64,000 nt of DNA from a virus (taxonomy: Duplodnaviria; Heunggongvirae; Uroviricota; Caudoviricetes). The stretch lies in IMG/VR virus record IMGVR_UViG_3300013902_000267; one strand, 5' to 3'. The notes under the pieces were generated by a model. That model made no database searches. It was not told the origin of the DNA and saw nothing but the letters and a program-made list of their open reading frames with translations. The position numbers and the translations under genes are program-made. Shown here piece after piece: positions 104 to 24,400 of this stretch. Numbering within the stretch: position 1 is the first letter of the stretch; every line of letters begins with the position of its first letter.

Positions 104-163
104 CATATTCGTAATTTTTATTTTTTATTTTTTTTATTTTTAAAGGATTTATACATAAAGAGA

Positions 164-846: not shown

Positions 847-942
847 AATTTCTATTAAATGCTAAATTATTTTTTATATTTATCATTTTTAAAACTATTT
901 AAAATAATTAATCTATAATAATTAAAATAAAAGGTTTGTTTT

Positions 943-1518: not shown

Positions 1519-1530
1519 TTTATAATTGTT

Positions 1531-1710: not shown

Positions 1711-1712
1711 AT

Positions 1713-2396: not shown

Positions 2397-2398
2397 TT

Positions 2399-4577: not shown

Positions 4578-4583
4578 TAATAT

Positions 4584-5938: not shown

Positions 5939-5940
5939 TT

Positions 5941-6177: not shown

Positions 6178-6189
6178 ATAGTATATTTA

Positions 6190-6225
6190 AAAGTCACTAA
6201 AATAAAAACTTTAGTGACTTTTTCT
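6190..6225 (+). terminator. Rho-independent terminator (AAAGTCACTAAA - loop - TTTAGTGACTTT, then a T-run)
   Basis: Perfect 12-bp stem read directly, followed by TTTCTATT. Confidence 0.7.
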
Positions 6226-6263
6226 ATTATTATATATGAATTATAATTTAAACTATAAGATAA

Positions 6264-6647
6264 ATGAATTTAATTACAAATATAAAGAAATCATACAAAC
6301 ATATACCATATACATTTAAACATTGGAAGATGGTATTGAAATTAGAGAAGAAATATATAGGCTATTATAAATATCCTTTTCATGATTTAGATAAATTGTT
6401 CATGTATATATTCTTCCCTTATTTAGGAACAAAGATAATTCAGAAAATTCATACAAAGTTTGCTAATCATCATTTACGTAAATATAAGAAACATATGAAT
6501 TTTGATGAAGCTATTCTTGATTGGGAATCTGCAAGGTTTACAAAACCTGATAAACCATTGGATGCGTGGGATACATATCAAAAATATTTTACGGAATTTT
6601 CAAATGAACTTTTACCTATATTTGAAAAATTTAACTTGAAACATTAA
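6264..6647 (+). CDS. Hypothetical basic protein
   Basis: 127-aa ORF. Confidence 0.4.
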   Translation: MNLITNIKKSYKHIPYTFKHWKMVLKLEKKYIGYYKYPFHDLDKLFMYIFFPYLGTKIIQKIHTKFANHHLRKYKKHMNFDEAILDWESARFTKPDKPLDAWDTYQKYFTEFSNELLPIFEKFNLKH

Positions 6648-6869
6648 AGACTTTATTTATATACGTTTATATAAAATACATAATGATTTTGTTTTAGAAG
6701 AACATTTATAAAAACTGTTTTAATAATTAGTGTAAAAGTGAGCACACAGAAAAAGAGAATTATGATAATTTCTGTAGAGCATGGATCAATACCAGCATTA
6801 TATAATGTACAGTTTATAGCAACGAATGTTCGAAATTTAAATTAACTATATGTCTAACATTCTTAATTT

Positions 6870-6942
6870 TTATTATTGGTAATAAGTGGCAAAACATGCT
6901 AGGAATAGTAAGTTATCGGTTCGAACCCGATATAATAAAGAT
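6870..6942 (+). tRNA. tRNA-like element (canonical T-arm and 7-bp acceptor stem; D and anticodon arms unresolved)
   Basis: Acceptor TTATTAT/ATAATAA. T-arm ATCGG-TTCGAAC-CCGAT. I could not fold a convincing anticodon arm. Possible degenerate or atypical tRNA. Confidence 0.3.
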
Positions 6943-7154
6943 AGAAAATGGATGATAGTTAATGATGCTAGATATAACGCTTATTATAGAAGTATTATAG
7001 GATTTGATTGAAGTGTGGATGTTTATTATACCTGTTCTATTTTTTAATAAAACAAATGTCCCTATAGATTGAAACATGGATTGAGATGAATATAATATGA
7101 TGTAATTTTAAGTTTGTTATATTTAGCATTAATTTTTTAATAAGAATTATTAAT

Positions 7155-7598
7155 ATGTATATGTTACGATTACAAGATTTACCAGATGGTGCAATAGTTC
7201 AATTATACTATAGGTCTTACGAAGAAGGATATGGACGTAGTAAACCAATGTTTAGAACATATATTATATCATTTAATGATAATACTATAATTTTTTCAAA
7301 TGTAGAATCTAAATACGAAGGTAATTTTAGTTTTTATTTAAATCAAACAGCACAATATATACATTTTGATCCAACAGACATAAATAATATTAATAATTTT
7401 GGATTTGATAAAAACTATATTATTGTATATGGAATTTATACATTTGATGATTCTAATAATAAAGTAAAAATGCCATATTCAATGAAAGGCAAGTATAAAA
7501 TGAACATATACAATACAAAATGTATATATCAAGAAGATATATCAAAAATTGCAGGGGATGAAATACAAGCTTACAATAGACGATACAAATATTATTAA
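7155..7598 (+). CDS. Hypothetical protein
   Basis: 147-aa ORF. Confidence 0.4.
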   Translation: MYMLRLQDLPDGAIVQLYYRSYEEGYGRSKPMFRTYIISFNDNTIIFSNVESKYEGNFSFYLNQTAQYIHFDPTDINNINNFGFDKNYIIVYGIYTFDDSNNKVKMPYSMKGKYKMNIYNTKCIYQEDISKIAGDEIQAYNRRYKYY

Positions 7599-8109
7599 TA
7601 TAAACATATTACCCGGTGCAAAATTTGAATGTACAATATATAAAGGCAACGGACATTATGAAAGTTCATATGGAACTATTATGAAATGCAATGATAGATT
7701 AGTATTAATGTTGTGTGGACTTTTGTTTTTTGGATATGACTATCATTCTTGGAATAGTATTCATACTTATAATAAAAAACATTATCTGTATTATAATTAT
7801 TATAAGAATGATAACGATAGTATGAAAATAAAAGGTATTGTATGGTATTTAGATTTTGAAAAATATCCAGATAATTTTGGATTGTCTCCAAAATTATTTG
7901 TTGTTACTGATATATGGTTTAATAATATACATATATATAAAAGTAATTATATGTTGAAGAAATACAAACCAAGTTTAAAACCAAATTATATACATGAAGC
8001 AAATGAAAATTGTAAATGTTTTAAATATTGCGGTGGTAGTGTATATTCATCGGAAAAGTTAGAGGAATATGCAGAAGTAATACCTAATAAAAATTATAAT
8101 TATGAATAA
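7549..8109 (+). CDS. Hypothetical protein
   Basis: 186-aa ORF. Overlaps the upstream ORF by about 50 nt; the true start may be the later ATG at about 7558. Confidence 0.4.
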   Translation: MQGMKYKLTIDDTNIININILPGAKFECTIYKGNGHYESSYGTIMKCNDRLVLMLCGLLFFGYDYHSWNSIHTYNKKHYLYYNYYKNDNDSMKIKGIVWYLDFEKYPDNFGLSPKLFVVTDIWFNNIHIYKSNYMLKKYKPSLKPNYIHEANENCKCFKYCGGSVYSSEKLEEYAEVIPNKNYNYE

Positions 8110-9580
8110 TATTAAAGAAAATAATTTTTTCATTCCTAGAAAAATTGCTGTAGGATTTGTAAAAAGAGCAAATACATATTCAGGAAAGTTATCTTATATT
8201 ACTTATTATGATAATACTAATAAATTACGTAAGGACGTATCTTGGAATGGTTGGAGAGATAAAAATATAGAACCTGTATATACGGATAATATTCCAACAA
8301 CAGGTTTTATTATTAATAAACGTGCAGGAGGCGAAAAATGGGGATGGAACCAAAGAGCAACATATGCGCGTATATATGATCCAAGAGGGTTTGAATTTGA
8401 GATAACTATAGATAATCTTCTTTGGATTCTGGAATATACTAATTCAGAAAACAAGGAATTAAAAGGACAATTTGTATATAGTTGGTATGGAACTGAACTT
8501 GTACTTATGCCTATTGTTTCATCTGATTATGAAGAATCTAAACGTTTATCTGAACAACAATATAATAAAACATCGTTTAAAGAACGCGATTTAATTCCTG
8601 GAACACTTTATAAAATGAAAGGTAAGGAATTAAATGAATTGGTATATATTGGTAAAGTAAAAGTATCTACTGAATTCAATATGTCTTATGTTAATAAATT
8701 AGCATTTGTACCTATACAGGATTCTTGGAAGTTATATTCACATTATGATAAAAATATCAACAGATCTGATTTCTTTATATTTAAAAGTGTTTCGTCTGTT
8801 ATAGCAGAAATGCAACAAAATTATTTTAGTGACGATATTGTAAAAGAATATCTACATAGATTTGATATGTGCGCGTATTCATATAATTTCTGGAATAATT
8901 TTGGTAATTTCATTGATAAATTTGTTTCTGACCATCCATGTATAATGAATGATTATAAAAAACCATATAAGATAGAATATAATAGATATAGCACAGAGAA
9001 GAATAATTATAATAATATTATTGATAAATTCGAATATAATGGTATAAAGTTAGATTCATTAAGAATTATTCCTGAATGGTTAATCCAAACAGACAGAGAA
9101 CACATATTTTATGAAAATACAAGTGTATTAAAATCAGTTATATCCGATGATGGTAAATCCGTATTGATAAAAGATCAATATCCTACTATAGAAAAGATTA
9201 ATACATTTAATAGGATTGTATATAAACGAATGTATGATTTCATGAATATTGATTTAAATACAAATACATTTAATAAAATATGTGATCCCGGATTGTGGGA
9301 TGAATATAGAGGTCATCATTCTTGCGAAGTATCAAATATTATATATAAGCATCCATCAGAAACTACAGATGTTCAGAAAGCAAGAGAAATTAATACTCAG
9401 GTTTCATTAAATGATAACAGAACATTCTTATATTATATAACGAAGGATAATTATATATCTATATCATTACAGGAAATGATACGGAATCATCGTTATATGA
9501 AATTCGGTTTCTCGAATGGTATAGATGAGAATAAATGGGTAACATTAGATGTAATATTGTTACCAAAAAAGATTAAGTAA
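8102..9580 (+). CDS. Hypothetical protein (492 aa)
   Basis: Long intact ORF in the standard code. Confidence 0.5.
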   Translation: MNNIKENNFFIPRKIAVGFVKRANTYSGKLSYITYYDNTNKLRKDVSWNGWRDKNIEPVYTDNIPTTGFIINKRAGGEKWGWNQRATYARIYDPRGFEFEITIDNLLWILEYTNSENKELKGQFVYSWYGTELVLMPIVSSDYEESKRLSEQQYNKTSFKERDLIPGTLYKMKGKELNELVYIGKVKVSTEFNMSYVNKLAFVPIQDSWKLYSHYDKNINRSDFFIFKSVSSVIAEMQQNYFSDDIVKEYLHRFDMCAYSYNFWNNFGNFIDKFVSDHPCIMNDYKKPYKIEYNRYSTEKNNYNNIIDKFEYNGIKLDSLRIIPEWLIQTDREHIFYENTSVLKSVISDDGKSVLIKDQYPTIEKINTFNRIVYKRMYDFMNIDLNTNTFNKICDPGLWDEYRGHHSCEVSNIIYKHPSETTDVQKAREINTQVSLNDNRTFLYYITKDNYISISLQEMIRNHRYMKFGFSNGIDENKWVTLDVILLPKKIK

Positions 9581-9601
9581 TTTTTTTATTTCAAAATAAT
9601 T

Positions 9602-9624
9602 ATGTATCTTTGTATTGTTAATAA
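9602..9624 (+). promoter_or_regulatory. Conserved promoter-like motif ATGTATCTTTGTATTGTTAATAA (copy 1 of 6)
   Basis: Same 23-mer family upstream of five minus-strand genes, always in the direction of transcription. Followed by a conserved AACAATTAAAAATAT element about 15 nt before the ATG. Confidence 0.55.
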
Positions 9625-9657
9625 ACAAAAAGTATAAACAATTAAAAATATATAATT

Positions 9658-10149
9658 ATGGCAACAAATAAAAAGAATACAGTTAAGAAGTATATGCTTT
9701 CCCAAAATTTACCTTTTGGTAATTTAAAAGCAGGCATGATTTTCTCTTATGATACTATTACAAAAACTGCGGTATTTCCAAATGGACAAGAGATCTCACC
9801 ATTTGATGTAACAGATAAGAATTTCGTTAAGTCTGTCGCAGATGTAAAGTTTAATGTAGGTGATTGTGTCATTTATCATACACGATTGTATAAGATTACT
9901 GATATTAACTATGTAACAGGTCGTTGTAAGCTTTTAGAGTTTTACGCAAATAAAGAGGTTGATTTTGTAAGTCATTCTGTATTGACAGCAGCACAAGTTT
10001 ATTGGTTTGTTAATTCGTCTGGAACTGTTTCATCATCATATATTGGCAAACAACCAGATGCAGACTTATGGAGAGCAAAAACAAAGAACATGTTTAATAC
10101 CAAGGAGGAGTGTCAGAAGTATAAGAATATTGTTCTTAAAAGTAAATAA
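9658..10149 (+). CDS. Hypothetical protein
   Basis: 163-aa ORF preceded by the conserved promoter motif and followed by a terminator. Confidence 0.5.
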   Translation: MATNKKNTVKKYMLSQNLPFGNLKAGMIFSYDTITKTAVFPNGQEISPFDVTDKNFVKSVADVKFNVGDCVIYHTRLYKITDINYVTGRCKLLEFYANKEVDFVSHSVLTAAQVYWFVNSSGTVSSSYIGKQPDADLWRAKTKNMFNTKEECQKYKNIVLKSK

Positions 10150-10269: not shown

Positions 10270-10863
10270 ATGCCAACAATGATGCCATTAATGGATAAAG
10301 ATACCGTAAGATATATAACATAGAATATTACACCAGAAGAAACTAAATATGTAGCTGATATAAAATCTACTATTGATGATACAAAGTGTGAACCAGAGAA
10401 ATGTGATGATGTTATATATCTTACTAAGATTATCGCTTTTTATACTAAATTTACAAATCTTGCAAATACAACACCTAATAATCAATATAAGATGCATATT
10501 CAAGATTTTATGTGGAGATTACAGCAATATAAGGAAGATATATTTGAAGTTGTTCAATCTATCATAGGAGTTTTAAATGGTTCCGATATTACAAAGATTG
10601 AATTACCTATAAGTGATAATCCATTAGAGATTATAAATGAATTAAAACAATGTGTACAAAATTGGTTTACACTTCATACAGATGATATTGAATATGAAGG
10701 CGCTAGATCATTAACTAGTTCATTCCTTTCTGTAATTCATAAGTTTGTTTACCTTTTTAGATTAGATAAATGCTCGACTGCTGATTATGGTCAGGATTAG
10801 AAATTACCAAATCCTGATGCAGGATTATGTGGAGTAAACGGAGCATATGCAGTAAATTTTTAA
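10270..10863 (+). CDS. Hypothetical protein; TAG-recoded (2 in-frame TAG)
   Basis: Continuous frame from ATG 10270 to TAA 10861-10863. The ORF track shows only the fragment 10492..10800 because it treats TAG as a stop. Confidence 0.55.
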
Positions 10864-10874
10864 TATGATATAAT

Positions 10875-11828
10875 ATGAATCCTATAAATCAACCATCATC
10901 TAGAAATTACAATATCAATGGTAGTACAAGAAATAATGGGTTCTTATATAAAATTATGCCTTTATCATTTAATTTACAATAGAGAGGAAATGATTTTAAA
11001 GTTAAAAAATACAATAAGTGTAAATTTAATATCGGCGATAATGTAAGAGGATTGTGTTTGGAAGATAAGAAAGAACATTCAGGACGAATTACTAATATCT
11101 TATACAGTACAAATACAGAAGTTCCTTATTTAGTTTATATCATTGATAATAAGACAAGATAGAAATTATCATTAAACTTTAGTTCGCTAGAATTTAATAA
11201 TTCTAAAATTGATGAGTCATATGGGTTTGATGTTGCCATTAAACTATATGAAACATTAAATAAAGATAAATATAATAAATTAAAACTTTAGAATAGAATG
11301 GTAAATTCAATAAAAGTTTTACTTGAAGAATATTTTAATAATACAGAACAAATGGATATGTTGTTAAATGATTATTAGAAACAACAGAAAAAAGCAAGTA
11401 AAGCATATGATTCACGTCAAGAGTTTTTAAAATCAATATTAGGTAAAGTAACATATAACAAATATCAAAATAAAGGTATGTTTGCTCCTATTCCTTTATC
11501 TGCATTGCATTTAACATTCGAAGATTTTTATTATTTGTTTCCAGAGAATAATATTAAGATGAGACCAATGGATAATGAAGCAGGTGTAGAGAAAGTAAAG
11601 AAACTTATTGCACGTATTAATAAGGAATATCCTAATAACGGTATTAGATTGTTAGATAATGGTGTTTCTTATACATTAAGTTCAAATCTTGTATTTAAGA
11701 GATTAGATAATATAATTGATTTTTTATAGATAATTCAGAAAAATGTTTTGAGGATTTCATCTGATAAAACAAATCCAACAGTTAATTGGAAGGCGATGAT
11801 AAAGAAATTCAGAAATTATCTACGATAA
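10875..11828 (+). CDS. Hypothetical protein; TAG-recoded (5 in-frame TAG)
   Basis: Continuous frame from ATG 10875 to TAA 11826-11828. Contains the track fragment 11478..11729. Confidence 0.5.
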
Positions 11829-11861
11829 TCAAATAAGTAAAATAAATTAATTAAAATAATA

Positions 11862-12365
11862 ATGATGATAACTACAAACATAAGTAACATTCCAGACGCA
11901 TGGGATGGTTATTTTGAACAATAGGTTAATAAGTTCACGCCTTCTGTTGAAGTTCCTAAGCCTTGGAGACATCCGGTTGGACCTGAACCTATGATGAAAC
12001 CTTGCAAGCATCATAAGACATAGTTTATTATAAAACATAAACCTGCTACATTACCAAATGGACCAGAACATGGATGTAACGTATGTGATCCATATCATCC
12101 AAATTTGTATGATCATATGAATATGCCTTGTTTTAATCAACATAAACCATATGGTATCGCTACTAATAGATTAATGAGTCCATTTGAAGATGATGATAGA
12201 CCTGATTGGCATGAATTCCATGCTAAGAATCGTAAACCTATGATGTTTGAAGAAGTTATAGATGAAAATGGTTGTTCACATGGTCCTCATGGAACAATTA
12301 ATGTTAGACCAGTTGAACCTGCTGATGATGAAGCAGATGAGATTGAAGATGAAGTAACAGTTTAA
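11862..12365 (+). CDS. Hypothetical Cys/His-containing protein; TAG-recoded (2 TAG)
   Basis: ATG 11862 to TAA. Contains the track fragment 12105..12365. Confidence 0.5.
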
Positions 12366-12398
12366 AATGAAAATTAATTAATGATAGAAATATAAATT

Positions 12399-13166
12399 AT
12401 GCAAACATCAAGTAAAGTTTCATACGATAATTGGAGTGATTGGAATTTAGGAAATTAGATAATGAATATAAGACCTGTTGGTACATATTGCTTCTGTGAA
12501 CATCATCATTGTCACCATCATCATCCTTGTGATTGTGTAGATTGTGAATTCTCAGAATCATATATTAAACCAGAATCTTGTTGTCATCATCATCCGCATC
12601 CACCAGTACCATGTCCACCACATCATTGTGATTGTCATGATCCACATTTATTTCCAATTGATCAAGATAATGATGGATTTGTAGAAAGTGATATGATTCA
12701 TAAACATCCAGAACCATATATTCCAGAACCATTACCAGGAGAAATTGGAGATAAAGAAGATGATACAACAAATAGAATGGAAGTAGGTGACGAAGTTGAT
12801 GATATTGATGATTCAACAAATTATTATGGTTCAAATTTAGTTGTAAGTATTCCTAAAGAAATTCAACCAGTAGAAACATCAGATGAAATTGATTCTATTT
12901 TAGATGAAGATACACAAGATGATATGGTAACTACTGATGAAGATGGTTATCATACATTAAGTGATGAAGTTCCAGCAGAAGAAGATAATTGGGAAACATC
13001 AAAAATGATTGATACTAATACATCTAAAATTATTGAAGAAACACCAGTTCCTGAATAGGAATTAAAGGAAGTTGAAACTATTCCATCTGTAGAATCAGTA
13101 GAAGAGAAACCCACACGTGGACGTAGAAGAGTTAATCGTGGAGGAAGACGTAAAAAAGAAGAATAA
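12399..13166 (+). CDS. His/Cys-rich (metal-binding-like) protein with a basic C-terminal tail; TAG-recoded
   Basis: 'CEHHHCHHHHPCDC...CCHHHPHPP...HHCDCHD' His/Cys clusters. Reading through TAG at 13056 extends to '...RGRRRVNRGGRRKKEE' and TAA at 13164-13166. Confidence 0.5.
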
Positions 13167-13180
13167 TTTTTATTCTATAT

Positions 13181-13227
13181 ATAATAGAAAAGAGACTTAG
13201 AACAAAAATACTAAGTCTCTTTTTATT
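13181..13227 (+). terminator. Rho-independent terminator (AAAGAGACTTAG / CTAAGTCTCTTT, T-run)
   Basis: Perfect 12-bp stem followed by TTTATTTTTT. Confidence 0.7.
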
Positions 13228-13262
13228 TTTTATAAACATTCACATTTAATTTTACTATAAAA

Positions 13263-13889
13263 TTAAAGCATACATTCATCCCACCAGTCAGCGCGGAAAG
13301 TCATATCACAAGACATCAAATCTGTACTGTCATAATTAAGTGTAGGACCAGGTACACCTGTTGTAGGGAAAATGTAATAGAATACCCATTGCCAATATGG
13401 ATTACCAGCACGATCTTGCATAGTAATAGTCATTGATGGCGCCACGTAATCTTTCTTAAGGCCTTCACGACCTGTAAGAGGATCATAAATAAGGTCAACC
13501 CATTCACGAAGGAACTTATATGTGTAGTTCTCAGGTGAACCGTTATCATATGAAAGGTTAAGGTTAAAGTGTAATGTCAAGTCGACATTAGTTCTATCTG
13601 GTTTTGCACCAGCGAATGAACGTTGTGCAAATTTATACTTTTGCTCTGTTGCGTTAGCACCAAATGAAGTAGAAATCTGACCAACACTTTGTACACCTTC
13701 AAGAATAATATTCAAACGTTCATCATCTGTTGTATCAACCATACCTTGAGGACAACTTAATTGAACAGTAAACAAGTTCAAATATATAGGTTCCCATAAT
13801 GAGGTAGATACACGGCTATTTCTAAAATGTGATAATCCTAACAAACCTGGAGATTTCTTAGGTAAAGTAGGTCCATTTGTTACTGCCAT
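13263..13889 (-). CDS. Tail tube protein, T4 gp19 family
   Basis: 'NRVSTSLWEPIYLNLFTVQLS' resembles T4 gp19 'PNLFQVEIS'. C-terminal 'DMTFRADWWDE' resembles gp19 'LALDYWE'. 208 aa. Implies a contractile tail. Confidence 0.55.
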   Translation of the reverse strand: MAVTNGPTLPKKSPGLLGLSHFRNSRVSTSLWEPIYLNLFTVQLSCPQGMVDTTDDERLNIILEGVQSVGQISTSFGANATEQKYKFAQRSFAGAKPDRTNVDLTLHFNLNLSYDNGSPENYTYKFLREWVDLIYDPLTGREGLKKDYVAPSMTITMQDRAGNPYWQWVFYYIFPTTGVPGPTLNYDSTDLMSCDMTFRADWWDECML

Positions 13890-14042
13890 ATTATTATTAA
13901 AGTATATTTTATTTTATTTATCTGTGAAAAATAGGTAGATTAAATGTAGACAAAAATATTTTTTTATAGTATAAATTAAGAATTTAAAAAAAATAGAGAT
14001 AAATAATTAAGTTCAAAAAATAAATTTTAAATAAAGAAGAAA

Positions 14043-14216
14043 ATGAAGAAGATTTTATTTGTACTTGCTGCTGTTGTAACAATGAGTTTCGCTTCTTGTG
14101 GTAACAAGACTACTACATGTGGAACAGCAAATGATTCAACTGCAACAGATACTACAGTTGTTGATTCTACAGCTACAGATTCAACTGCAGCTGATTCTAC
14201 AGTTTGTCCTATGTAA
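14043..14216 (+). CDS. Small lipoprotein (signal peptide plus lipobox Cys) with a DSTAT-type tandem repeat
   Basis: MKKILFVLAAVVTMSFASC-GNK, a Bacteroidota-type lipoprotein signal. Preferred over the antisense track ORF 14027..14221. Confidence 0.55.
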   Translation: MKKILFVLAAVVTMSFASCGNKTTTCGTANDSTATDTTVVDSTATDSTAADSTVCPM

Positions 14217-14301
14217 TTCATAAGACAAACTTTATTTTAGAGAAGATTATTGTGTAATTAAAATATAACCTAATATAAGGTTTATATTAAACTAATTTTA
14301 G

Positions 14302-14350
14302 AGATATACTAAATATATTCATTTATATTTGGTATATCTTTTTTTATTTA
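14302..14350 (+). terminator. Rho-independent terminator (AGATATAC ... GTATATCT, then TTTTTTATTT)
   Basis: 8-bp stem with a long loop and a T-run. Confidence 0.45.
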
Positions 14351-14389
14351 ATAAATATTTAAAATTTATTTAACTGAATTATATAATAT

Positions 14390-15286
14390 ATGGCAACATG
14401 GAATCAAGCAGTTCAATAGATGGGTAAGTTTTATCAATAGAATATACATACATATCAAGGAGGTAAATCAGGACATGCGACAGGTGCTAGACGTTCTTAT
14501 TCATGTCCTTTAGTTGGACACAGTGTAGGAGATGATTGTTCAGGATTTACTTCTGCGTGTTTATAGTTATTTGGAGCATTTCCAGGCTCATATATTGTTT
14601 CATCTAGTGGTTTTGCATCAACATCTGGTGCAACAGCCGCATATTTAAGAAAAGCTGGATTTTCACCGTTAAGATATATTAGTTACTCATCTTTATAGCC
14701 ATATGATATTGTTGCAAGAAATGGACATGTTGAAGTATTTTGTGGTATGAAGGGAAGTTCACCAATGTCATACGCATGGGGAAATATTCATGATGGCATA
14801 AATGGACATGTTGGTATGCCATGTTGGTTTTCTAAACAGTCTTATTCTATTGTATGGAGAAATTCTGGTGTAAGTATAGATACACCATTAGATTTTTCTT
14901 CAGTGTCTGGCGGTTCATTACAACAATAGATGAATTCTGGATATGGTACAGGTGGAACATTAAATGGGTAGACAGGTTCATAGTTTAATTATACATCAAA
15001 TACATATCCTGTTCATGATGAATATGAAACTATTTCATCTGGTAATGGTTCAAAATCTGTATTTGAAATTGTAGGTGAAAATACATTACGTATGGCATAT
15101 ACAAATTCATCATATATACAACAATTAGATTCATCTAATTATTAGTTAAAAAATACTCGTATATATTCAACTAATGATGCATCTATAATATTAGATGAAT
15201 TATCAATACCATTAGATCCATTTGATACGAGTGTTAATACATTAGATTCAAGTGTTATTGATAATTCAGTTAAAACAAATAATTAA
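14390..15286 (+). CDS. NlpC/P60-family peptidoglycan endopeptidase (virion- or tail-associated lysin); TAG-recoded (8 TAG)
   Basis: Catalytic-Cys signature 'GDDCSGFTSAC' (NlpC/P60 'DCSGF'). One frame from ATG 14390 to TAA 15284-15286, interrupted only by TAG. C-terminal module shared with the next gene. Confidence 0.65.
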
Positions 15287-15292
15287 TAATAT

Positions 15293-16333
15293 ATGGCTGG
15301 CAAGAAATTACTTAATGGTGTTTATATAACAAAGAAAATAATGGAAGCTTTTAATCTTAAAGATTATCAGGCTGCTGGATTTGCTGGTTGTTTTATGGAA
15401 GAATCTGGTTGTGATCCCGGTGCATATAATGCCGCTGAAAAATCTGGAAGATTTAAAGGTTCATCAGCGAACGGTGCAGGTTATGGTGCAGGTCTTGCAT
15501 AGTGGTCTAATGCATGGAAACGGTAGATATAGAGATAGTTTAATAATTCAAGGCCTATAGAAAATTGGACATTAGATTAGCAAATAGCTATTGTTACTAA
15601 AGGCTGTTCATAGTCTTTTGTAAATTTATTAAGAAAATGTACATCAGTAGGTTAGTCTACAGATATTGTTTTAAGAGGATATGAAAATGGTTCTGCAGGT
15701 AAAGGTACTAAATTACGTTCATAGCAATCAATGAAAGCATATACGTGGTGTAAGACATCATATATGGCAGATGGTAGTAGACGTACGTTTAGTGATGGAT
15801 ATATTGGTGCATTAACATGTAGAACATCATGGGCTAATGCAGTTTTAAGTAAAATGGGATCAGTTAATCTTGCAGATTTATCCGGATTAGGAACAGAAGT
15901 AGGTGGAGGATTAGGTGATGATGGCTCTTTTGGTTCTACTGGTGGAGGAGGAACTGGAGATTCAAACGCATATCCTGTTCATGATGAATATGAAACATTT
16001 ACTGGACAAGGTGGAAATATATTTGCAAATGCAAAAGATAATGCATTTCAATTAGCTGCTGATGCATCAAAATCTAAATTTTCATCTAAAGATTCTGAAG
16101 CATCTAAGCATACACGTATATATTCTACAAATGATTCTTGTATTGTTTTAGATGAATTAAGTATACCATATGATCCAAATGATCCAACTATTGAATATGC
16201 AAATCAAAATGTAAAAGCGGAAGATGTTAAGAAAGATACATCTACTAATGCAAAAGATAATACTAAAGACACATCTACAAATAAAAGTACAAATAAATCT
16301 AATACTACAAAAAAGACAACTAAATCTAAATAA
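15293..16333 (+). CDS. Phage tail lysozyme-like protein (Phage_lysozyme2 family); TAG-recoded (about 9 TAG)
   Basis: 'AAGFAGCFMEESGCDPGAYNAAE...GAGYGAGLA-Q-WS' matches the tail-lysozyme family signature. The family has Q where this gene has TAG. Confidence 0.6.
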
Positions 16334-16335
16334 TT

Positions 16336-19300
16336 ATGATTACAATAAATGGTATTAAATATTTAAAAAAAGGAGAGACATCAAATGATAAAACAATAAC
16401 GCATTATTATTATACAGATTCATTAAAGAAAACTTATAACATAATATATAATGGCAAAAATGCTAAATTATATACAGATACTAAAGTATACAAGGATTCT
16501 GATACAAATTAGATTATAAAGAAAGATTTCTTTAATTATACTATTGATTACGGAACAGGAAAATATGGAGGTGTTTGTTATTCAAAATCAGATGAAGATA
16601 AGATATTAGGTATGGTCGATTCTGATAGTAATATAGATGGAAGTTCTAATGGAGATTCTACAACTGATGGTGATAATAGTTCAAACTCTGGAAATAATTC
16701 TGATGATTCTGATAATAATGACGGTAATAGTTCAAATAATGGTAATGGAACAGGTGATGATACAAATGATTCTGATAGTAATGGATCTGGTAATAAAGAT
16801 ACTAATAATAAAGGTATATTTGAGGATTCAATGGGTAATAAAGATAAAGATAATCCTCGAAGTTCATTACCATTAGGAGCAGATATTAAAGATCCTGATG
16901 TTACAGGTTTTAGCATTGATGAAGTAACAGCGCCACATCCACGAGAAAACAATTGGTATAATAAAGGTTCTGTTTGTCCAATAATACGTATAAATGATCA
17001 TTATTTTTCTGATACTGAAATATAGCATTTTTCTATGGAAACTGGATATTATAAGAATTTTTATGATTATCAAGTATACCAAGCACCGTTAACAGGTGTT
17101 TTACCAACTATGAGGCTTATTGTTACAACAACAGATCCAGGTTTATTAAAGAAAGATTTTATAAAGCAAGGTGATAGATGTAATGTATTTTTCTAGAGTA
17201 ATCATTCTATGATTAAATCTATGAGATGTGATTTCAGAATTACTAATGTTGTAACAGATTAGTTAGATTAGACGTAGTATTAGAAATATCAAACATAGAT
17301 TATAACAGGTGAACTTTATGTCCCGGATTTAAGAAATGAAGAAACTCGTTATAATTTTAATGGTTCATCAAGAGATGCTATGATGGATTTGGCAAAGAGA
17401 TTAAGATTAAGTTTTTTCTTTTGTGATCCTGATGATACTAATGATAAAATGGTTTGGTGTAATTGTAAAACACCTGAAATGTTCATTCATGATTTAACAA
17501 CGCATGCATGGAAAAATTCTATATCATTCTTTGAATCTTGGATTGATCCACGTTATGGATTATCTTTTATGAATATTAATAGATTATTAGGTGAAGATGG
17601 ATTTGATGAATCAATAGATATGACATTCTGGACTAATACATTTATTAATAATAGATCAGTTGATGGAAAATCTGCAAATGAAACAGATACAGAATAGAAA
17701 AATAGTACACATATTCAAACAAAATGTTTTACTAATATTATTAATGATAATGAATCTGCTACAGTATATCATGTTAATAGTTGGAGATTGGTTAATAATG
17801 CATAGGAAATACAAGATTTTGTTGGATTGAATTGTAAAATGCAATATTCATCTGTTAATCCTGGATTATTATCAGATGAGAATAATAATCCAAATTATAG
17901 TGTAGAATTTTCATTATGTTTAAATAGAACTAAATTTGATCCAACTAAAAAGGATAATGATTTTTATGTATTATTAGGACCTGGTAGAAATATGACATAT
18001 GCGAGTGGCGATGCCGCCATGGGAACATCTGAAACACAATCTTCAAATAAAAATGAACCTGAACAAGTTACAAATCAAATGTCTGATGGTGATGCAGATG
18101 CAATGGATAGTACAGGAAATAATATGATGTCTTCTGGTAATACACATCAATTTTATGAAGTTGCTTATGAACATAATATGAGAAATTTACTATAGTTATA
18201 GAAATAGTATTTACTTGTAGAATTAAATGGTGCAAACTTAAGTATTGTTCGCGGTGAAAAAATGCCTATTGTATTAATGGATTTAAATAAAGCAGAACAA
18301 GCTATTAGAACTAGTCAAGCACGTACAAAAATAGAAGAATGTATGTATGAAGCTGAATCCGGTTGGTATATAATTGATGGTATTGAATGGGTTTTTGATC
18401 CTGATAATGATTAGGGACAAGGTACAAACTGGCGAACTAATGTGAAATTAGTTAGAAGAGAATGGCCAATACCATCAAAAATAAAAGATGCAAATGGTAA
18501 TACTGTTTCAAAAAATGTCGCAAATAGTATTGTTTTGGTAGATATTGGAAACGGACAATAGATAAGAATGGCTTATTATGATGCAGTAAAGAAATATAGT
18601 TAGGAAATAAAAAATGGTGATGTCAAAATATTAGGTGGAACAACATCTGAAGACGCAGTTGTAATTGGTCAGAAAAAACAAAACATATCTTCAACTAATG
18701 ATGAATAGAATTCAGATGATCTAGAAGAAAGTGGTAAATTATATACTGCAAATGGTGTAGAGACTGTAAGTGCAGTTAATTTTAATCTTGATTTAATGGA
18801 TCAATATGTAAAAGATTCTGATTATGTTGGTTAGTCTACAATACCTTTAACTGGTTTGAAAGATTTTATGAAAAATATTTATAAAACAATATTATCTGAA
18901 TCCGATAATAAATGTAAATTGGTATCTGGAAGACGGTGGGCAGTAGATGAATATGGTAATAAGGTAAATGGAAATGCGTTTGTAAAGAAATATGATTATT
19001 ATAAATGTATGAATGCTATAGGTGAAGTAATGTATTTTAAAAAAAATAATTCAAGTCATTTATATGGTGAAGCTATTGATATTATTAATAATGGTATAGA
19101 TTTTACTGAACTTATGACTAATGTAATAATGAAATCACCTGCGATATTAAAATTATTTTATGATAATGGTGTTTCTGCTTATATAGAGCAAGCAAAGGAT
19201 GATACAGGCGCAACTACTAAACATTACCATATTGGAACTGATACAATAAAACAACGAGAATTTTGGGAATCTGTTAAAGCTATATTAGGTTCTGATATGA

Positions 19301-19425
19301 TTCCAGGAACTATGATAACATTTATGAACTATATGACAAAAAATACATAGAGAACAACAGAATTCTCTGTAAGTAGTGAAATAGACGAAAACACATTACA
19401 AAAAAATAGTAATAATGATAAATGA
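16336..19425 (+). CDS. Large tail fibre/baseplate-like protein (about 1029 aa) with an N-terminal G/S/D/N-rich low-complexity region and a C-terminal peptidase-M15 domain; TAG-recoded (more than 20 TAG)
   Basis: One frame from ATG 16336 to TGA 19423-19425. Track fragments 16612, 17380, 17827 and 18856 are all in the same frame. M15 motifs 'SHLYGEAIDI' and 'HYHIG' near the C-terminus. Confidence 0.6.
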
Positions 19426-21489: not shown

Positions 21490-24400
21490 TTAAATATTTT
21501 CTTTTGGTAAATAAACACGTGTCTTTTGTTCTTTCTGACGTCCATCAGACCAATTCGAAATTTTAGTTAAATCACAATATACCCGAACTTTCATTCTATT
21601 TTAAAGGGGTTAGACTATACCACTAACTTCTTGAGTTACATCTTGGTAGTCGTTGAGGGCTTTTATTTGTTTCGTATCAAATAACTATCCCTGCTGATTA
21701 TCCATTGTTATATCATTAGAATTTTTACACTTTGGTATCTAATGCTTTAGGAACTTCCAGCATATTCGATGTTTGCTATATATGTCACCATATATAGGGG
21801 CATTTAATTAAAAATTTACCCGATTATTCTGTCATATAAACTTACATGAACTGATCCACACTTTGGACATACACTAAATGGTGTCTTTGAAATATATCCA
21901 CAATCTTCACATTTACAATTAGGAACATTAAATGTCCAATATTGACAACCATTCTCTGCCGCAAATTTCATAATGTGAACAATCTGTTTCTTAGACAAGT
22001 GCTCTGACAAATTGAGATGCGCTGCTGAACCACCATCCAAAAAATCTCCAATATAGTTCTTACCATGTAAGGTAATCTTATCAAAGATTGACAATGTTTT
22101 ATCATTTGGTTTGAATATGTAAGACGCATACAGGTTAGTGTCTGTTGGTACCCAATCAACTCTGTTACATGATTACATAATAATTTTAATATTATTGTTG
22201 AATGTAATCTGATTTATTAATATATTCATTTAGATTTATTAAACCTGCATGAATTTTCCTATGACAATTTGAACATACACATACACATTTTTTTATTTCT
22301 TCATATAGTTTTTCTTTACCTCTCCCTCGATGTTTACCTATTGTAAAATCTTTTTCATTTGGATCTATATGATGAAAATCTATACAACATGGTTCATATT
22401 CACTACATATTATACATGGATTCTTTAATGAATATAACCATTCTGTTTTTCTTTTTTGTGAACGCTTATTTTTGTTCATTATGTATTTCAGGATGTGCTT
22501 TTCTCATCTATTTCCTATATAATTTTCTACATTCTTTACATACTGCACGTCCTTTTTCAAACATTTCTATAGACAATTCTTTACCACATTTATTACATAT
22601 TTTTGTTGTCATATATATTAAATTATGTTTTATTATTTATCACCGGAACATGACAAAAATAACATAACCCAATTATATTAATAAACGCTTAATTATTTCT
22701 AATCAAGTCTCTATGTTACCATAGAGTTCGGACTATTGCATAGTTTTGTTTCACAACAAAACTCCTTTTTATTTAGTCTCTCAGGCTGCCCATAACATTG
22801 TTGTTATTGCTTGCCCCTCGTTATCCTTACTACCGGTACCTAAGGTAATAAAATGTAAGGAACTTCGAGTCAATTAAAAAAGGTTTTACATGGACATTGT
22901 TATTGTTGTCTATCCATCTTCAGAATCCCAATTATAATTCTTTATTGCCAAACTTTCAGCTGGTATACATTCAGTATTGAACGTTAACTTATGACCGTTA
23001 AATGTACCTGCAGCTTCTTGATTCTTTTGCTTTATATATCCAAATATTGTTTGACAAAGTTTTTCATAATGAGGATTTACATTACAAGTAATTCCTAAGA
23101 ATTCTGCCATTTGATTAAGACCATTCAAACCAATTGTTAAATATTGCTTATTCAAATTAATAAACCCTGCTTTATATACAGGTAATAATCCTGCGTCATA
23201 CATATCCCAAAGAAGTTCATTATATGCTGTATGATATTTATATACTCTATCAAGAATATTACCAAAATATTCGCACATATCATCATAATGCTCTTCTACA
23301 TTTTCTTTTGTTACTCCAGATTTCTTAACACTGTTAAACCAGTCTTGAGTTATGCGACTAAGATTCAGGGTTATCACACTTTTACTTCCTGTTTGACGTT
23401 TTCTCCATATATTTCTATATGGTCCGGGTCATATCTTATGTTTATTTAAATAATAAACATTGCACTATTTCGGCATTTAAAACGATTCGTTTCCTAAAAC
23501 GTTACTACGTATCAATAGTAGTCCTACTCCACCTGCTCATCACTTAGGGGATGACCTCCACACACATTAATAATTTTTATATGTTCTACCTATTAACATA
23601 TTCCTAAAATTATTCATTAAATAATTTTTATATTTACCGATTTTTAATTCTTCAATAGATTTGCCATTATTATATTGTTCTCTTAAATAAACAACTTCAT
23701 CTTTAGATAACAATGGTAACTTCTATTTACATTTATCAGTTCTAATAGGCATTTTTACATGCATATATGATTTTCCAAATAATATTTTATTAAATCCACT
23801 CCATGAATATAAATTACTATATTCTTTAAAAATATCATCTTCTTTTTCACCATTTACAAAATATCTTATTCTTATGTTTAATACTTCTTCATCAGATAAA
23901 TTCTTAGAATTTGCATGCATATTTCCTCTACGTGTTCTTCGATCTGATTTATAAAAATCATTTACTTTATCTGTATTATATTCTATACCAATTTCAGGTC
24001 TTGTATAATAATGCCAATATTTTGAAAATCCACTTTTTGACATTCTATCTTTATACATTTCATATACTTCTCCAAAAGTATATTTCATAGAATAACGTAT
24101 TTTTCTTAATTCTAATAATTCATTATCATTTAATATTGCTTTGGGATGCTCCTCCCCAACTTTTATTATAGTTGCAGAATGTCCACCCAATGTAGAATTA
24201 TATCCATTATTATAACTATCATATAATTTAATGTAATATATTTCTTTATTATCAGCTTCATCCTAATTAGGAACATTATCTTCTAATATTGAAAAATTTG
24301 ATTCATTAATATTATATTTTCTCATTGCTCTATATAATTTATAATCACTATGTTTCATATCATTTAAATGTTCTCTTACTCTTATATGATAATGATGTGT

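What the first reader, a model, noticed from the sequence alone, without database searches (positions are those of the whole stretch)
10270..19425. Mixed genetic code: TAG read as Gln in structural and lysis genes and homing endonucleases, and as single early gate codons in otherwise standard-code genes
Two classes of gene coexist.
- Fully standard-code genes: 943-10149, and most minus-strand genes.
- TAG-containing genes, where TAG aligns to Gln in homologs: GIY-YIG 'YIG-Q-T', tail lysozyme 'GLA-Q-WS', T4L 'KLF-Q-KD'.
The structural/lysis genes carry 2 to more than 20 TAGs each. A second pattern is one or two TAGs within the first roughly 60 codons of otherwise TAG-free genes: htpG codon 11, nrdD codon 16, the 50411 gene codon 13, the 45689 gene codon 22, the 43934 gene, the 52835 gene. 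Their position near the 5' end would make translation conditional on a suppressor, a possible timing switch.
No tRNA with a CTA anticodon is present in this window. The tRNA-Gln at 33-103 has CTG, one point mutation away.
Basis: partly seen in the sequence, partly recalled or inferred. Interest (0 to 1): 0.8.

Follow-up and report, generated by a model that had tools for sequence, protein, structure and literature searches.

The report
Amber-recoded Lak megaphage with 5′ gate codons
This window is a piece of the published Prevotella megaphage Lak-B7, which is already known to read the stop codon TAG as glutamine; what appears not to have been described is that genes carrying only one or two TAGs place them in the first ~30 codons, which fits a cheap translational "gate" that opens only once the phage's suppressor tRNA is present.

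Summary
The window is 100% identical to Prevotella phage Lak-B7 (MK250026.1, 139512-203511). If TAG is read through, 10270-19425 becomes seven contiguous + strand genes with 46 in-frame TAGs and no in-frame TAA or TGA.

In Lak-A1/C1 orthologs, TAG exchanges mainly with CAA/CAG (77 of 163 non-TAG partners are Gln, against a 2.5% background). The window has no CTA tRNA. The genome has one at 414053-414125, plus a TAG-free RF2 gene at 291016-292167. All of this is published (Devoto 2019, Crisci 2021, Borges 2022).

In 207 ortholog-verified genes with at most 2 TAGs, 30 of 65 TAGs lie in codons 1-30, against 174 of 1620 CAA/CAG (odds ratio 7, p=3e-12). The segments before the TAG evolve like coding sequence. 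Ten of 17 non-conserved 5′ TAGs are replaced by another 5′ TAG in Lak-A1.

Carriers include htpG, nrdD, a DnaB-like helicase, DNA polymerase B, SSB, a RecA-like protein and the major capsid protein. I found no prior description of this positional pattern. Whether it is a selected timing gate or only the least costly place for a TAG remains inference.

The parts
10270..10863 (+). TAG-containing gene, function unknown; TAGs at codons 18 and 177
   Evidence: no Pfam hit
10875..11828 (+). TAG-containing gene, function unknown; 5 TAGs
11862..12365 (+). His/Cys-rich protein; TAGs at codons 21 and 54
12399..13166 (+). His/Cys-rich acidic protein; TAGs at codons 20 and 220
13263..13889 (-). tail-tube-like gene with no TAG (8 CAA/CAG), on the opposite strand inside the recoded block
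   Evidence: PHROG 45 'tail tube' 3e-11
14390..15286 (+). recoded gene with 8 TAGs; shares a C-terminal module with the next gene
15293..16333 (+). phage tail lysozyme with 8 TAGs
   Evidence: Pfam PF18013 7e-13
16336..19425 (+). 1029-aa gene of unassigned function with 19 TAGs. Its C-terminal part contains 'SSHLYGEAIDI' and 'HYHIG', which by eye resemble the motifs of M15/LAS-type cell-wall peptidases; this is my reading, with no family match.
   Evidence: No Pfam or PHROG hit; the peptidase-like motifs were read directly from the translation.
23567..24463 (-). GIY-YIG homing endonuclease with 3 TAGs, inside the nrdD region; absent from Lak-C1
   Evidence: Pfam GIY-YIG 1.7e-4; I-TevI 3e-5
26779..27726 (-). 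HNH/HTH homing endonuclease with 4 TAGs, inside the nrdD region; absent from Lak-A1
27783..28901 (-). first segment of nrdD (ATP-cone plus NRDD N-terminal part); gate TAG at codon 16 (28854-28856)
   Evidence: Pfam; the TAG aligns to Gln of NrdD 8p23; conserved in A1/C1 and in IMG/VR Lak contigs
32780..34816 (-). htpG (Hsp90 family), 678 codons; its only TAG is at codon 11 (34784-34786)
   Evidence: Pfam HSP90 2e-42; homology to PDB chains runs through the TAG; first 45 nt identical in A1/B7/C1
40811..41974 (-). LAGLIDADG homing endonuclease with 7 TAGs; absent from Lak-A1 and Lak-C1
43934..44425 (-). 163-aa gene, function unknown; TAGs at codons 7 and 39
44492..46000 (-). DnaB-like replicative helicase; TAGs at codon 22 (45935-45937, conserved) and codon 104 (45689-45691)
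   Evidence: Pfam DnaB_C 1e-17
50135..51157 (-). 340-aa gene, function unknown; TAGs at codons 13 and 249
52835..53368 (-). DUF3310 protein; TAGs at codons 10 and 55
53414..53884 (-). 156-aa protein with a hydrophobic N-terminus; 3 TAGs
62683..63897 (+). T4-lysozyme-like protein with 9 TAGs
   Evidence: Pfam PF00959 3e-6; T4L alignment
931..10149 (+). block of 15 TAG-free ORFs (0 TAG against 56 CAA/CAG): RNA ligase, HisG-like, Ham1, cytidylyltransferase, SAICAR synthetase and others
33..104 (+). tRNA-Gln(CTG), an ordinary Gln tRNA and not the suppressor

Best explanation
The window is part of Lak-B7, a ~551-kb Prevotella megaphage that translates TAG as glutamine (genetic code 15).

Decoding (inferred mechanism): TAG is read by a phage tRNA with a CUA anticodon. 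A phage RF2, which recognises only UAA and UGA, keeps termination at those codons going. Both genes lie outside the window.

Consequence (inferred): any gene with an in-frame TAG can yield full-length protein only once the suppressor is active. TAG-free genes can be translated at once under the host's standard code. These include auxiliary metabolism, RNA repair and RF2 itself.

Three gene classes by TAG use:
- No TAG.
- Heavily recoded genes, where about half of all Gln codons are TAG. In the window these are the tail lysozyme, the T4L-like lysozyme, a 1029-aa gene of unassigned function and the homing endonucleases.
- Genes with one or two TAGs, placed preferentially in the first ~30 codons. 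These include htpG, nrdD, the DnaB-like helicase, DNA polymerase B, SSB, a RecA-like protein, a 5′-3′ exonuclease, a Mre11-like phosphoesterase, ClpP, the Amidase_3 protein and the major capsid protein.

Most likely reading of the third class: a single amber codon makes the protein suppressor-dependent, and it sits early so that the abortive product is a short, harmless peptide.

Shown here: the identity of the genome; that TAG behaves as Gln; the suppressor tRNA and RF2 genes; the three classes; the 5′ bias.

Inferred: the timing or gating function, and that early placement is selected for rather than merely tolerated.

My sub-probabilities: TAG is read as Gln via the phage suppressor, 0.97. 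The 5′ bias is real, 0.9. The 5′ TAGs are maintained by selection as gates, about 0.45.
For: Identity: 100% match to MK250026.1.

TAG behaves as Gln:
- The ORF structure is restored when TAG is read through.
- TAG exchanges with CAA/CAG in orthologs, and Gln has by far the best likelihood.
- The nrdD TAG aligns to Gln in NrdD 8p23.
- Residues after C-terminal TAGs stay conserved, so TAG does not act as a stop there.

Machinery:
- tRNA(CUA) at genome 414053-414125. Its first three acceptor-stem pairs, U1-A72, G2-C71 and G3-C70, are the same as in both phage tRNA-Gln genes.
- An RF2-type ORF (SPY and GGQ motifs) with 0 TAG among 12 Gln codons.

Literature: Devoto 2019 (PMC6784885), Crisci 2021 (PMC8346664), Borges preprint.

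Gene classes: heterogeneity p=4e-115; functions.

5′ bias:
- 30 of 65 TAGs against 174 of 1620 Gln codons lie in the first 30 codons (odds ratio 7.1, p=3e-12).
- Using codons 13-30 only, the odds ratio is 6.8 (p=6e-8), and this replicates in Lak-A1.
- Within-gene permutation: 16 observed against 4.0 expected for 1-TAG genes, and 14 against 6.6 for 2-TAG genes.
- Segments before the TAG evolve like coding sequence: syn/nonsyn 0.83, against 0.21 for true upstream sequence.
- Turnover: 13 of 30 TAGs are conserved in position, and 10 of the other 17 are replaced by another TAG within 45 codons, against a 7 of 177 background.
- A 43%-identical HtpG in a divergent Lak-like clade has TAGs at codons 4, 40 and 87 of 662.
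Against: - There are no expression, ribosome-profiling or peptide data for Lak-B7, so timing is untested.
- Devoto 2019 saw transcripts from both TAG-using and TAG-free regions in all samples.
- The capsid gene's codon-11 TAG is conserved only in the close Lak-A/B/C clade. More distant relatives have none, or a single TAG at about codon 96, 376 or 634.
- The turnover statistic can also arise if certain genes simply tolerate TAG only near the start.
- TAG-rich and TAG-free genes are interleaved at a fine scale, and an 8-TAG ORF sits directly upstream of the suppressor tRNA. No simple early/late block structure is visible.
- Replication genes that need the suppressor imply it must be made very early, which weakens a 'late switch' reading for that class.
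Confidence: 0.7

Rival explanations
1. Cost minimisation without a timing function. TAG is decoded imperfectly because it competes with host RF1, so it is mildly harmful wherever it occurs. It is least harmful near the start, where the aborted product is short. Mutation-selection balance alone then leaves surviving TAGs near the 5′ end in genes under strong selection for yield. No gate is selected for.
For: - The fewer TAGs a gene has, the stronger the 5′ bias. The bias disappears in genes with 6 or more TAGs.
- Heavily recoded genes also show a mild 5′-to-3′ decline in TAG share, from 0.53-0.58 to 0.40.
- The capsid gate is not deeply conserved.
- Highly expressed structural genes (the major capsid protein, the tail-tube-like gene) almost avoid TAG.
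Against: - TAG density drops sharply after about 30 codons (22.7, then 9, 4.5 and about 2.5 per 1000 codons) rather than gradually.
- 59% of lost 5′ TAGs are replaced by another 5′ TAG in the ortholog, against a 4% background.
- The htpG, nrdD and DnaB-like TAGs are conserved across Lak-A/B/C and IMG/VR relatives.
- Among 205 genes with at most one TAG beyond codon 60, 31 carry exactly one TAG in the first 30 codons and only 3 carry more.
Confidence: 0.35
2. Start-codon artefact. The 'early' TAGs lie in 5′ leaders or short upstream ORFs, and the real genes start downstream of them.
For: - This is true for four in-frame TAGs in the window, upstream of 42044-43555, 51210-51518, 223-846 and 29762-30016.
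- 43% of 5′ TAGs have an ATG within 15 codons downstream, against 26% of controls. The difference is not significant.
Against: - HtpG and NrdD homology to solved structures runs through the TAG.
- Segments before the TAG show third-position-dominated, synonymous-rich divergence like true coding sequence, for both short and long segments.
- The 15 codons after the TAG also evolve like coding sequence, and the median distance to the next ATG is 24 codons.
- The bias persists when only codons 13-30 are counted.
Confidence: 0.03
3. The 5′ TAGs are part of a general translational ramp, that is, rare or slow codons enriched in the first 30-50 codons. They are not a suppressor-dependent switch.
For: The affected zone of about 30 codons matches the length reported for codon ramps (from general knowledge; not tested here).
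Against: - The effect size is 7- to 11-fold, which I judge far larger than known ramp effects.
- The bias is confined to low-TAG genes.
- A stop codon that needs a phage tRNA is qualitatively different from a slow sense codon.
Confidence: 0.08
4. An early TAG creates two isoforms. Before the suppressor is present, ribosomes terminate and re-initiate downstream, giving an N-terminally truncated protein. Later the full-length form is made.
For: - htpG has a TTG 6 codons and an ATG 10 codons after the TAG.
- There is a slight, non-significant excess of nearby downstream ATGs.
Against: - There is no significant enrichment of restart codons (p=0.17-0.24).
- The truncation would remove conserved N-terminal elements such as the NrdD ATP-cone start and the first HtpG helix.
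Confidence: 0.07
5. TAG encodes something other than Gln (ARAGORN labels the tRNA 'Pyl'), or the TAG-bearing ORFs are decayed pseudogenes.
For: - ARAGORN labels the CTA-anticodon tRNA 'tRNA-Pyl'.
- Individual distant homologs have Asn, Ser or Lys at some TAG positions.
Against: - The partner spectrum strongly favours Gln.
- The tRNA shares its first three acceptor-stem pairs with both phage tRNA-Gln genes.
- The ORFs are long, free of TAA/TGA, conserved, and evolve under purifying selection.
- Crisci 2021 reports Gln at 75-85% of aligned positions.
Confidence: 0.02

Closest known systems
Lak megaphage genetic code 15 (Devoto et al. 2019, PMC6784885; Crisci et al. 2021, PMC8346664)
   Same: It is the same genome. 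Lak-B7 is listed in Devoto's Table 1. TAG is repurposed to Gln. TAG is unused over large parts of the genome and used in regions encoding structural proteins. The tRNA(CUA), the RF2 and a tRNA with a TTA anticodon are all reported.
   Different: Nothing differs for the code itself. Those papers describe TAG use by region (1-kb windows) and within the terminase. They do not describe where TAG sits inside genes. [quoted passage not shown]
Stop-codon recoding as a regulator of late and lysis genes (Borges et al. 2021/2022; Peters et al. 2022, PMC9523058)
   Same: Standard-code genes come first, code-change machinery is encoded in standard code, and structural, lysis and intron-endonuclease genes are enriched in the recoded stop codon. 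Lak replication genes are noted as 'mostly encoded in alternative code'.
   Different: That model is bimodal: TAG-free early genes and TAG-rich late genes. Here a third class appears, with one or two TAGs confined to the first ~30 codons. It includes replication genes and the major capsid protein. The preprint text contains no mention of N-terminal or positional placement.
Block-wise dual coding in crAss-like phages (Mgcod, Pfennig et al.; Yutin et al. 2021, PMC7886860)
   Same: Two coding regimes coexist in one genome that infects a standard-code Bacteroidetes host.
   Different: crAss-like genomes split into a few large blocks. In Lak-B7, TAG-free, single-TAG and TAG-rich genes are interleaved gene by gene.
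Amber-mutant phages grown on suppressor hosts, and engineered amber-gated genes
   Same: A single early amber codon makes expression fully dependent on a suppressor tRNA.
   Different: Those are laboratory constructs or conditional-lethal mutants. Here the arrangement is natural, spread over about 30 genes, and the phage supplies its own suppressor.

Membership tests
Code-15 (TAG to Gln) recoded Lak megaphage | Sequence identity to a Lak genome | tested here: met
   100% identical to MK250026.1 over the whole window
Code-15 (TAG to Gln) recoded Lak megaphage | In-frame TAGs in conserved genes, with full-length ORFs restored when TAG is read through | tested here: met
Code-15 (TAG to Gln) recoded Lak megaphage | TAG positions correspond to Gln in relatives | tested here: met
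   77 of 163 non-TAG partners are Gln, against a 2.5% background; log-likelihood -367 against -643. The nrdD TAG aligns to Gln in 8p23. Two distant single-homolog checks gave Asn and Ser.
Code-15 (TAG to Gln) recoded Lak megaphage | Phage-encoded suppressor tRNA with a CUA anticodon | tested here: met
   Genome 414053-414125: ARAGORN call, Rfam tRNA 61.7 bits, first three acceptor-stem pairs shared with the phage tRNA-Gln genes. Not in the window.
Code-15 (TAG to Gln) recoded Lak megaphage | Phage RF2 (reads UAA/UGA), with no RF1 | tested here: met
   A six-frame search for the GGQ motif found one class-I release-factor ORF, at 291016-292167, with an RF2-type SPY/SPF motif and no TAG. Absence of RF1 rests on that motif search only.
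Code-15 (TAG to Gln) recoded Lak megaphage | TAG not used as a terminator | tested here: met
   No 3′-end enrichment of TAG, and residues downstream of C-terminal TAGs are conserved
Code-15 (TAG to Gln) recoded Lak megaphage | Gln observed at TAG positions in peptides | not testable with these tools
   Proteomic proof exists only for crAss-like phages (Peters 2022)
Late-gene-biased recoding model (Borges et al.) | Structural and lysis genes enriched in the recoded codon | tested here: inconclusive
   Met for the tail lysozyme and the T4L-like lysozyme. The most TAG-rich gene (1029 aa, 19 TAGs) has no assigned function. The tail-tube-like gene has 0 TAG, and the major capsid protein and the Amidase_3 protein have a single TAG.
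Late-gene-biased recoding model (Borges et al.) | Code-change machinery encoded in standard code | tested here: met
   RF2 has 0 TAG among 12 Gln codons and sits in a mostly TAG-free block
Late-gene-biased recoding model (Borges et al.) | TAG-free genes expressed early, TAG genes expressed late | not testable with these tools
   No time-resolved data. TAG-free genes in the window are auxiliary metabolism, RNA repair and stress types.
Block-wise dual-coded genome (crAss/Mgcod type) | A few large contiguous blocks, each with one code | tested here: not met
   Gene-by-gene mosaic. The TAG share per 10-kb bin ranges from 0 to 52% without large uniform blocks.
Pyrrolysine decoding of TAG | TAG positions not aligned to a standard amino acid; Pyl-type tRNA | tested here: not met
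   The partners are Gln, and the tRNA shares its first three acceptor-stem pairs with the phage tRNA-Gln genes. pyl genes were not searched for.
Intron-borne homing endonucleases (group I intron plus HEG) | Endonuclease domain, and presence/absence polymorphism between close genomes | tested here: met
   GIY-YIG, HNH and LAGLIDADG domains. The insertions are absent from Lak-A1 and/or Lak-C1.
Intron-borne homing endonucleases (group I intron plus HEG) | Recognisable group I intron RNA around the endonuclease gene | tested here: not met
   No Rfam match up to E=1 in 21400-29100

The most novel reading that the evidence does not exclude
Lak phages run a three-tier translational programme written in one codon. 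TAG-free genes are translated at once. Core replication, chaperone and capsid genes carry a single selected amber 'gate' within the first ~30 codons, short enough that the aborted peptide costs little. Tail, lysis and homing-endonuclease genes are saturated with TAG. The gate is maintained by selection and moves by turnover, with a lost TAG replaced by another nearby. If so, this would be direct evidence that stop-codon recoding in phages is regulatory rather than drift.
Probability: 0.4. Interest if true: 0.7.

Novelty: new variant of a known kind. Interest (0 to 1): 0.5.

Why it matters
The reassignment itself (TAG to Gln in Lak phages, with a phage suppressor tRNA and RF2) is already known for this genome and adds nothing new.

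The positional pattern matters because the main open question about recoded phages is whether in-frame stop codons are a regulatory device or a by-product of low GC content and suppressor acquisition. A strong 5′ placement of the only TAG in about 30 core genes points to selection acting on where the codon sits. So does its replacement by a nearby TAG in a related genome.

The pattern gives concrete, cheap tests. One is to fuse the first 40 codons of htpG or the capsid gene to a reporter, with and without the tRNA(CUA).

It also has a practical consequence. Annotation pipelines that switch code by genome block, or that pick the first ATG after a TAG, will truncate the N-termini of these genes.

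Tried and rejected
- Group I introns around the nrdD endonuclease genes: no Rfam match, even at E up to 1.
- Ribozyme or other RNA next to the suppressor tRNA: only the tRNA itself was found.
- The third tRNA in the window as a hidden suppressor: its anticodon loop is UAUGAUG, not CUA.
- The suppressor as a recent point mutant of tRNA-Gln(CTG): it is only 68% identical, no closer than to several other tRNAs, although the first three acceptor-stem pairs are shared.
- TAG as a real stop in some genes: no 3′-end enrichment, and downstream residues are conserved.
- Restart codons after 5′ TAGs: not significantly enriched.
- The base following the TAG: purine in 25 of 30 cases against a 66% background, which is weak.
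- PDB homolog for the tail lysozyme: none found.
- Deep conservation of the capsid gate: not found beyond the close clade.
- NrdD and DnaB relatives outside Lak carry no TAGs in these genes (apparently standard-code phages), so they are uninformative.
- The published version of Borges 2022 (PMC9197471) is not held in the library, so only the preprint was checked.
- The heavy protein-database searches, structure prediction and fold search were not used. The ortholog comparison answered the coding question.

Full report
WHAT THE WINDOW IS

A megablast of window 1-25000 against phage records gave a 100% match to Prevotella phage Lak-B7 (MK250026.1). Matches to the other Lak-B genomes were 99% or higher, and matches to Lak-A1, A2 and C1 were about 82%. 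After fetching the whole 550,702-bp record, the window maps exactly to genome positions 139512-203511. GC content is about 27%, and the coding strand switches near 19.4 kb.

CHECKING THE OBSERVATION

Under the standard code, 10.2-19.4 kb is a field of short ORFs. With only TAA and TGA as stops, it becomes seven tightly packed + strand genes. These are 10270-10863, 10875-11828, 11862-12365, 12399-13166, 14390-15286, 15293-16333 and 16336-19425. They carry 2, 5, 2, 2, 8, 8 and 19 in-frame TAGs.

The coding frame has 46 TAGs and no TAA or TGA. The two other frames hold 311 TAA and 223 TGA. The adjacent block 931-10149 has 0 TAG among 56 Gln codons, against 46 TAG and 58 CAA/CAG here (Fisher p=3e-11).

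Pfam identifies 15293-16333 as a phage tail lysozyme and 62683-63897 as a T4-lysozyme-like protein. It identifies 23567-24463 as GIY-YIG, 26779-27726 as HNH and 40811-41974 as LAGLIDADG. It also identifies 32780-34816 as HtpG, 27783-28901 as the ATP-cone/NrdD N-terminus and 44492-46000 as a DnaB-like helicase. The 1029-aa product of 16336-19425 matched no Pfam or PHROG family.

WHAT TAG ENCODES

I aligned every window ORF with its ortholog in Lak-A1 and Lak-C1 and read off the codon opposite each TAG. TAG faces TAG 55 times, CAA 53 times and CAG 24 times. Gln accounts for 77 of 163 non-identical partners, against a background Gln frequency of 2.5%. A likelihood comparison over all 20 amino acids puts Gln at -367 and the runner-up, Lys, at -643. 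The frequent TAG/CAA exchange needs two nucleotide changes, so it is hard to explain unless the two codons are synonymous.

I also checked against solved structures, with TAG masked as X:
- The nrdD TAG aligns to Gln in the ATP-cone of NrdD 8p23.
- The htpG TAG falls inside the conserved first helix of the Hsp90 N-domain.
- The T4L-like 'KLF-x-KD' aligns to Asn68 of T4 lysozyme, next to Gln69.
- The GIY-YIG 'YIG-x-T' aligns to Ser in I-TevI.

TAG does not act as a terminator anywhere I could test. There is no enrichment at gene 3′ ends, and residues after C-terminal TAGs are conserved.

THE DECODING MACHINERY

The window has no CTA tRNA. It holds tRNA-Gln(CTG) at 33-104, tRNA-Lys(TTT) at 62193-62266 and a 96-nt atypical tRNA at 62092-62187 whose anticodon loop is UAUGAUG.

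Genome-wide, ARAGORN finds 33 tRNAs, including one with a CTA anticodon at 414053-414125. Rfam confirms it at 61.7 bits. Its first three acceptor-stem pairs, U1-A72, G2-C71 and G3-C70, are the same as in both phage tRNA-Gln genes. Overall it is only 68% identical to tRNA-Gln(CTG). It is therefore a dedicated suppressor, not a recent mutant of the window's tRNA.

A six-frame search for the GGQ motif finds a single class-I release factor, at 291016-292167. It has an RF2-type SPY motif and no TAG among its 12 Gln codons.

All of this agrees with the literature. Devoto 2019 describes code 15 for this very genome, with TAG unused over large parts of it and used in regions encoding structural proteins. 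Crisci 2021 reports the CTA suppressor, the RF2 and a universal TTA-anticodon tRNA. Borges et al. propose recoding as a regulator of late and lysis genes, and note recoded homing endonucleases in another phage clade.

THE 'GATE CODON' SUB-CLAIM

This is the only part that goes beyond published work, so I tested it hardest.

In the window, N-terminal alignments with Lak-A1 and C1 confirm the TAG positions:
- htpG: codon 11.
- nrdD: codon 16.
- The DnaB-like gene: codon 22, plus codon 104.
- 43934-44425: codons 7 and 39.
- 50135-51157: codons 13 and 249.
- 52835-53368: codons 10 and 55.

All of these TAGs lie downstream of a conserved ATG and inside conserved protein sequence. Four other in-frame TAGs are upstream of the conserved start and are not coding. 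Nucleotide alignments show indels upstream of the ATG. From the ATG onward, differences fall only on third codon positions. The first 45 nt of htpG, including the TAG, are identical in all three genomes.

To get statistics I assembled the whole of Lak-A1 and paired 502 reciprocal-best ORFs. I defined each start as the most upstream ATG aligned in both genomes.

Gene classes. Of 413 genes with at least 80 codons, 243 have no TAG, against 86 expected if TAG use were uniform (chi-square p=4e-115). The TAG share of Gln codons is bimodal: zero in one group and about 0.3-0.7 in the other.

5′ bias. In genes of at least 150 codons with at most 2 TAGs, zero-TAG genes included (207 genes), 30 TAGs lie in codons 1-30 and 35 in all later codons. 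That is 4.8 against 0.65 per 1000 codons. CAA/CAG split 174 against 1446 (odds ratio 7.1, p=3e-12). For single-TAG genes, 16 of 23 TAGs are in the first 30 codons. In the 1-2-TAG genes, density is flat at about 23 per 1000 codons over codons 1-30, then falls to 9, 4.5 and about 2.5.

Controls:
- The segments between the ATG and the TAG evolve like coding sequence. Differences at codon positions 1, 2 and 3 number 45, 29 and 93, with syn/nonsyn 0.83.
- The comparison values are 0.74-0.86 for true coding sequence and 0.21 for true upstream sequence.
- This holds for short and long pre-TAG segments separately.
- Counting only codons 13-30 still gives an odds ratio of 6.8 (p=6e-8), and the result replicates with Lak-A1 as the focal genome.
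- Shuffling which Gln sites are TAG within each gene gives 16 observed against 4.0 expected for 1-TAG genes, 14 against 6.6 for 2-TAG genes, and 19 against 13.3 for genes with 3-5 TAGs. There is no effect in genes with 6 or more TAGs.

WHO CARRIES THE EARLY TAGS

Outside the window, the carriers and their TAG codons are:
- Major capsid protein: codon 11, the only TAG in 667 codons.
- DNA polymerase B: codon 7.
- RecA-like protein: codon 6.
- SSB: codon 21.
- 5′-3′ exonuclease: codon 28.
- Mre11-like phosphoesterase: codon 9.
- PD-(D/E)XK nuclease: codon 14.
- DinG-like helicase: codon 30.
- ClpP: codon 6.
- Amidase_3 domain protein: codon 30.

TAG-free genes in the window are RNA ligases, Ham1, a HisG-like protein, a cytidylyltransferase, SAICAR synthetase, NAMPT, TelA, SPFH, CNNM and an S1-domain protein. 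The tail-tube-like gene at 13263-13889, on the opposite strand inside the recoded block, is also TAG-free.

CONSERVATION AND TURNOVER

Of the 30 Lak-B7 genes with a 5′ TAG, 13 have TAG at the same column in Lak-A1. Ten have a different TAG within the first 45 codons, and 7 have none. Only 7 of 177 genes without a 5′ TAG in B7 have one in A1.

IMG/VR relatives give a mixed picture at greater distance:
- The capsid gene's codon-11 TAG exists only in the close clade. Capsid genes 58-72% identical have none, or one at about codon 96, 376 or 634.
- A 43%-identical HtpG from a divergent Lak-like clade has three TAGs, at codons 4, 40 and 87 of 662. These are again 5′, but at new positions.
- The NrdD and DnaB-like genes of Lak-clade contigs keep TAGs at codons 16 and 22. 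Relatives outside Lak carry no TAGs in these genes (apparently standard-code phages) and say nothing.

HOW IT MOST LIKELY WORKS

Shown: TAG behaves as Gln; a phage tRNA(CUA) and an RF2 exist; genes fall into TAG-free, single or early-TAG, and TAG-rich classes.

Inferred: TAG-bearing genes cannot give full-length protein until the suppressor is active. In genes where yield matters, a single TAG is kept near the start, so the block is complete but the aborted peptide is short. The edge at about 30 codons is close to the length of nascent chain generally taken to fit in the ribosomal exit tunnel. That link is my speculation.

The main rival is that early TAGs are merely the least harmful ones under imperfect suppression, with no timing role. 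The sharp positional step, the predominance of exactly one early TAG per gene (31 genes, against 3 with more) and the replacement pattern lean toward maintenance. They do not exclude gene-specific tolerance. No restart-codon signal supports an isoform model.

Two points argue against a simple late switch. The suppressor must be active early enough for replication genes. TAG-rich and TAG-free genes are also interleaved finely, with an 8-TAG ORF directly upstream of the suppressor tRNA.

NOVELTY

The mixed code is already known for this genome. I searched the held literature: Devoto 2019, Crisci 2021, the Borges preprint, Peters 2022, Yutin 2021, the theta-ribozyme paper and a 2026 crAss preprint. 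I found only the two-class early/late picture and no mention of 5′ placement. The published Borges 2022 text is not held, so prior description cannot be fully excluded.

I rate the finding a new variant of a known kind and of moderate interest. It is ordinary as a code reassignment. As positional evidence it bears on whether recoding is regulatory, which is worth following up.

Noticed in passing
window 62092-62187 (-): A 96-nt tRNA found by Rfam (45 bits) but missed by ARAGORN. It has a ~25-nt insert or long variable arm and an odd anticodon loop, UAUGAUG (A at position 33). Lak phages are reported to have intron-containing tRNAs (Devoto 2019). The overlapping ORF 62063-62566 is probably spurious.
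   Followed up: partly
window 22886-28961 (-): nrdD is a mosaic. Its pieces are separated by an HNH endonuclease gene (26779-27726, absent from Lak-A1) and a GIY-YIG endonuclease gene (23567-24463, absent from Lak-C1). The 24598-25590 segment contains the C-terminal part of an intein. No Rfam group I intron was detected, so how the pieces are joined is unresolved.
   Followed up: partly
window 40811-41974 (-): A LAGLIDADG endonuclease gene with 7 TAGs, absent from both Lak-A1 and Lak-C1. It appears to be a recent free-standing or intron-borne insertion between two TAG-free genes.
   Followed up: partly
window 14043-14216 (+): A small TAG-free ORF that starts MKKILFVLAAVVTMSFASCG. By eye this looks like a signal peptide with a lipobox. 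It lies just upstream of the tail-lysozyme gene pair and could be a spanin-like or other lysis-associated lipoprotein.
   Followed up: no
window 11862-13166 (+): Two adjacent recoded genes encode proteins very rich in His, Cys and Pro (for example CHHHHPCDC and HHHPHPP). They have acidic tails and no family match. They may bind metal.
   Followed up: no
window 13263-13889 (-): A tail-tube-like gene (PHROG 45) lies on the opposite strand inside the heavily recoded block yet contains no TAG. Like the major capsid protein, an abundant virion protein avoids TAG in its body.
   Followed up: partly
Lak-B7 genome 345556-345628 (outside the window; locus L007 45556-45628): A well-folded tRNA with a TTA anticodon, which would read TAA, the phage's main stop codon. 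It is already reported as universal in Lak genomes, with no evidence of TAA recoding (Crisci 2021).
   Followed up: partly
window 34772-34816 (-): The first 45 nt of htpG, including the codon-11 TAG, are 100% identical in Lak-A1, B7 and C1, while synonymous changes begin right after. This suggests an extra constraint on this stretch, such as the initiation region or an RNA structure.
   Followed up: no
L053/L054 (IMGVR_UViG_3300008715_000016 and 3300008522_000006) 1498-3492: A divergent Lak-like clade has an HtpG only 43% identical to the window's, with TAGs at codons 4, 40 and 87 of 662. The same contigs' capsid gene has its TAGs near the 3′ end (L035, L036).
   Followed up: partly
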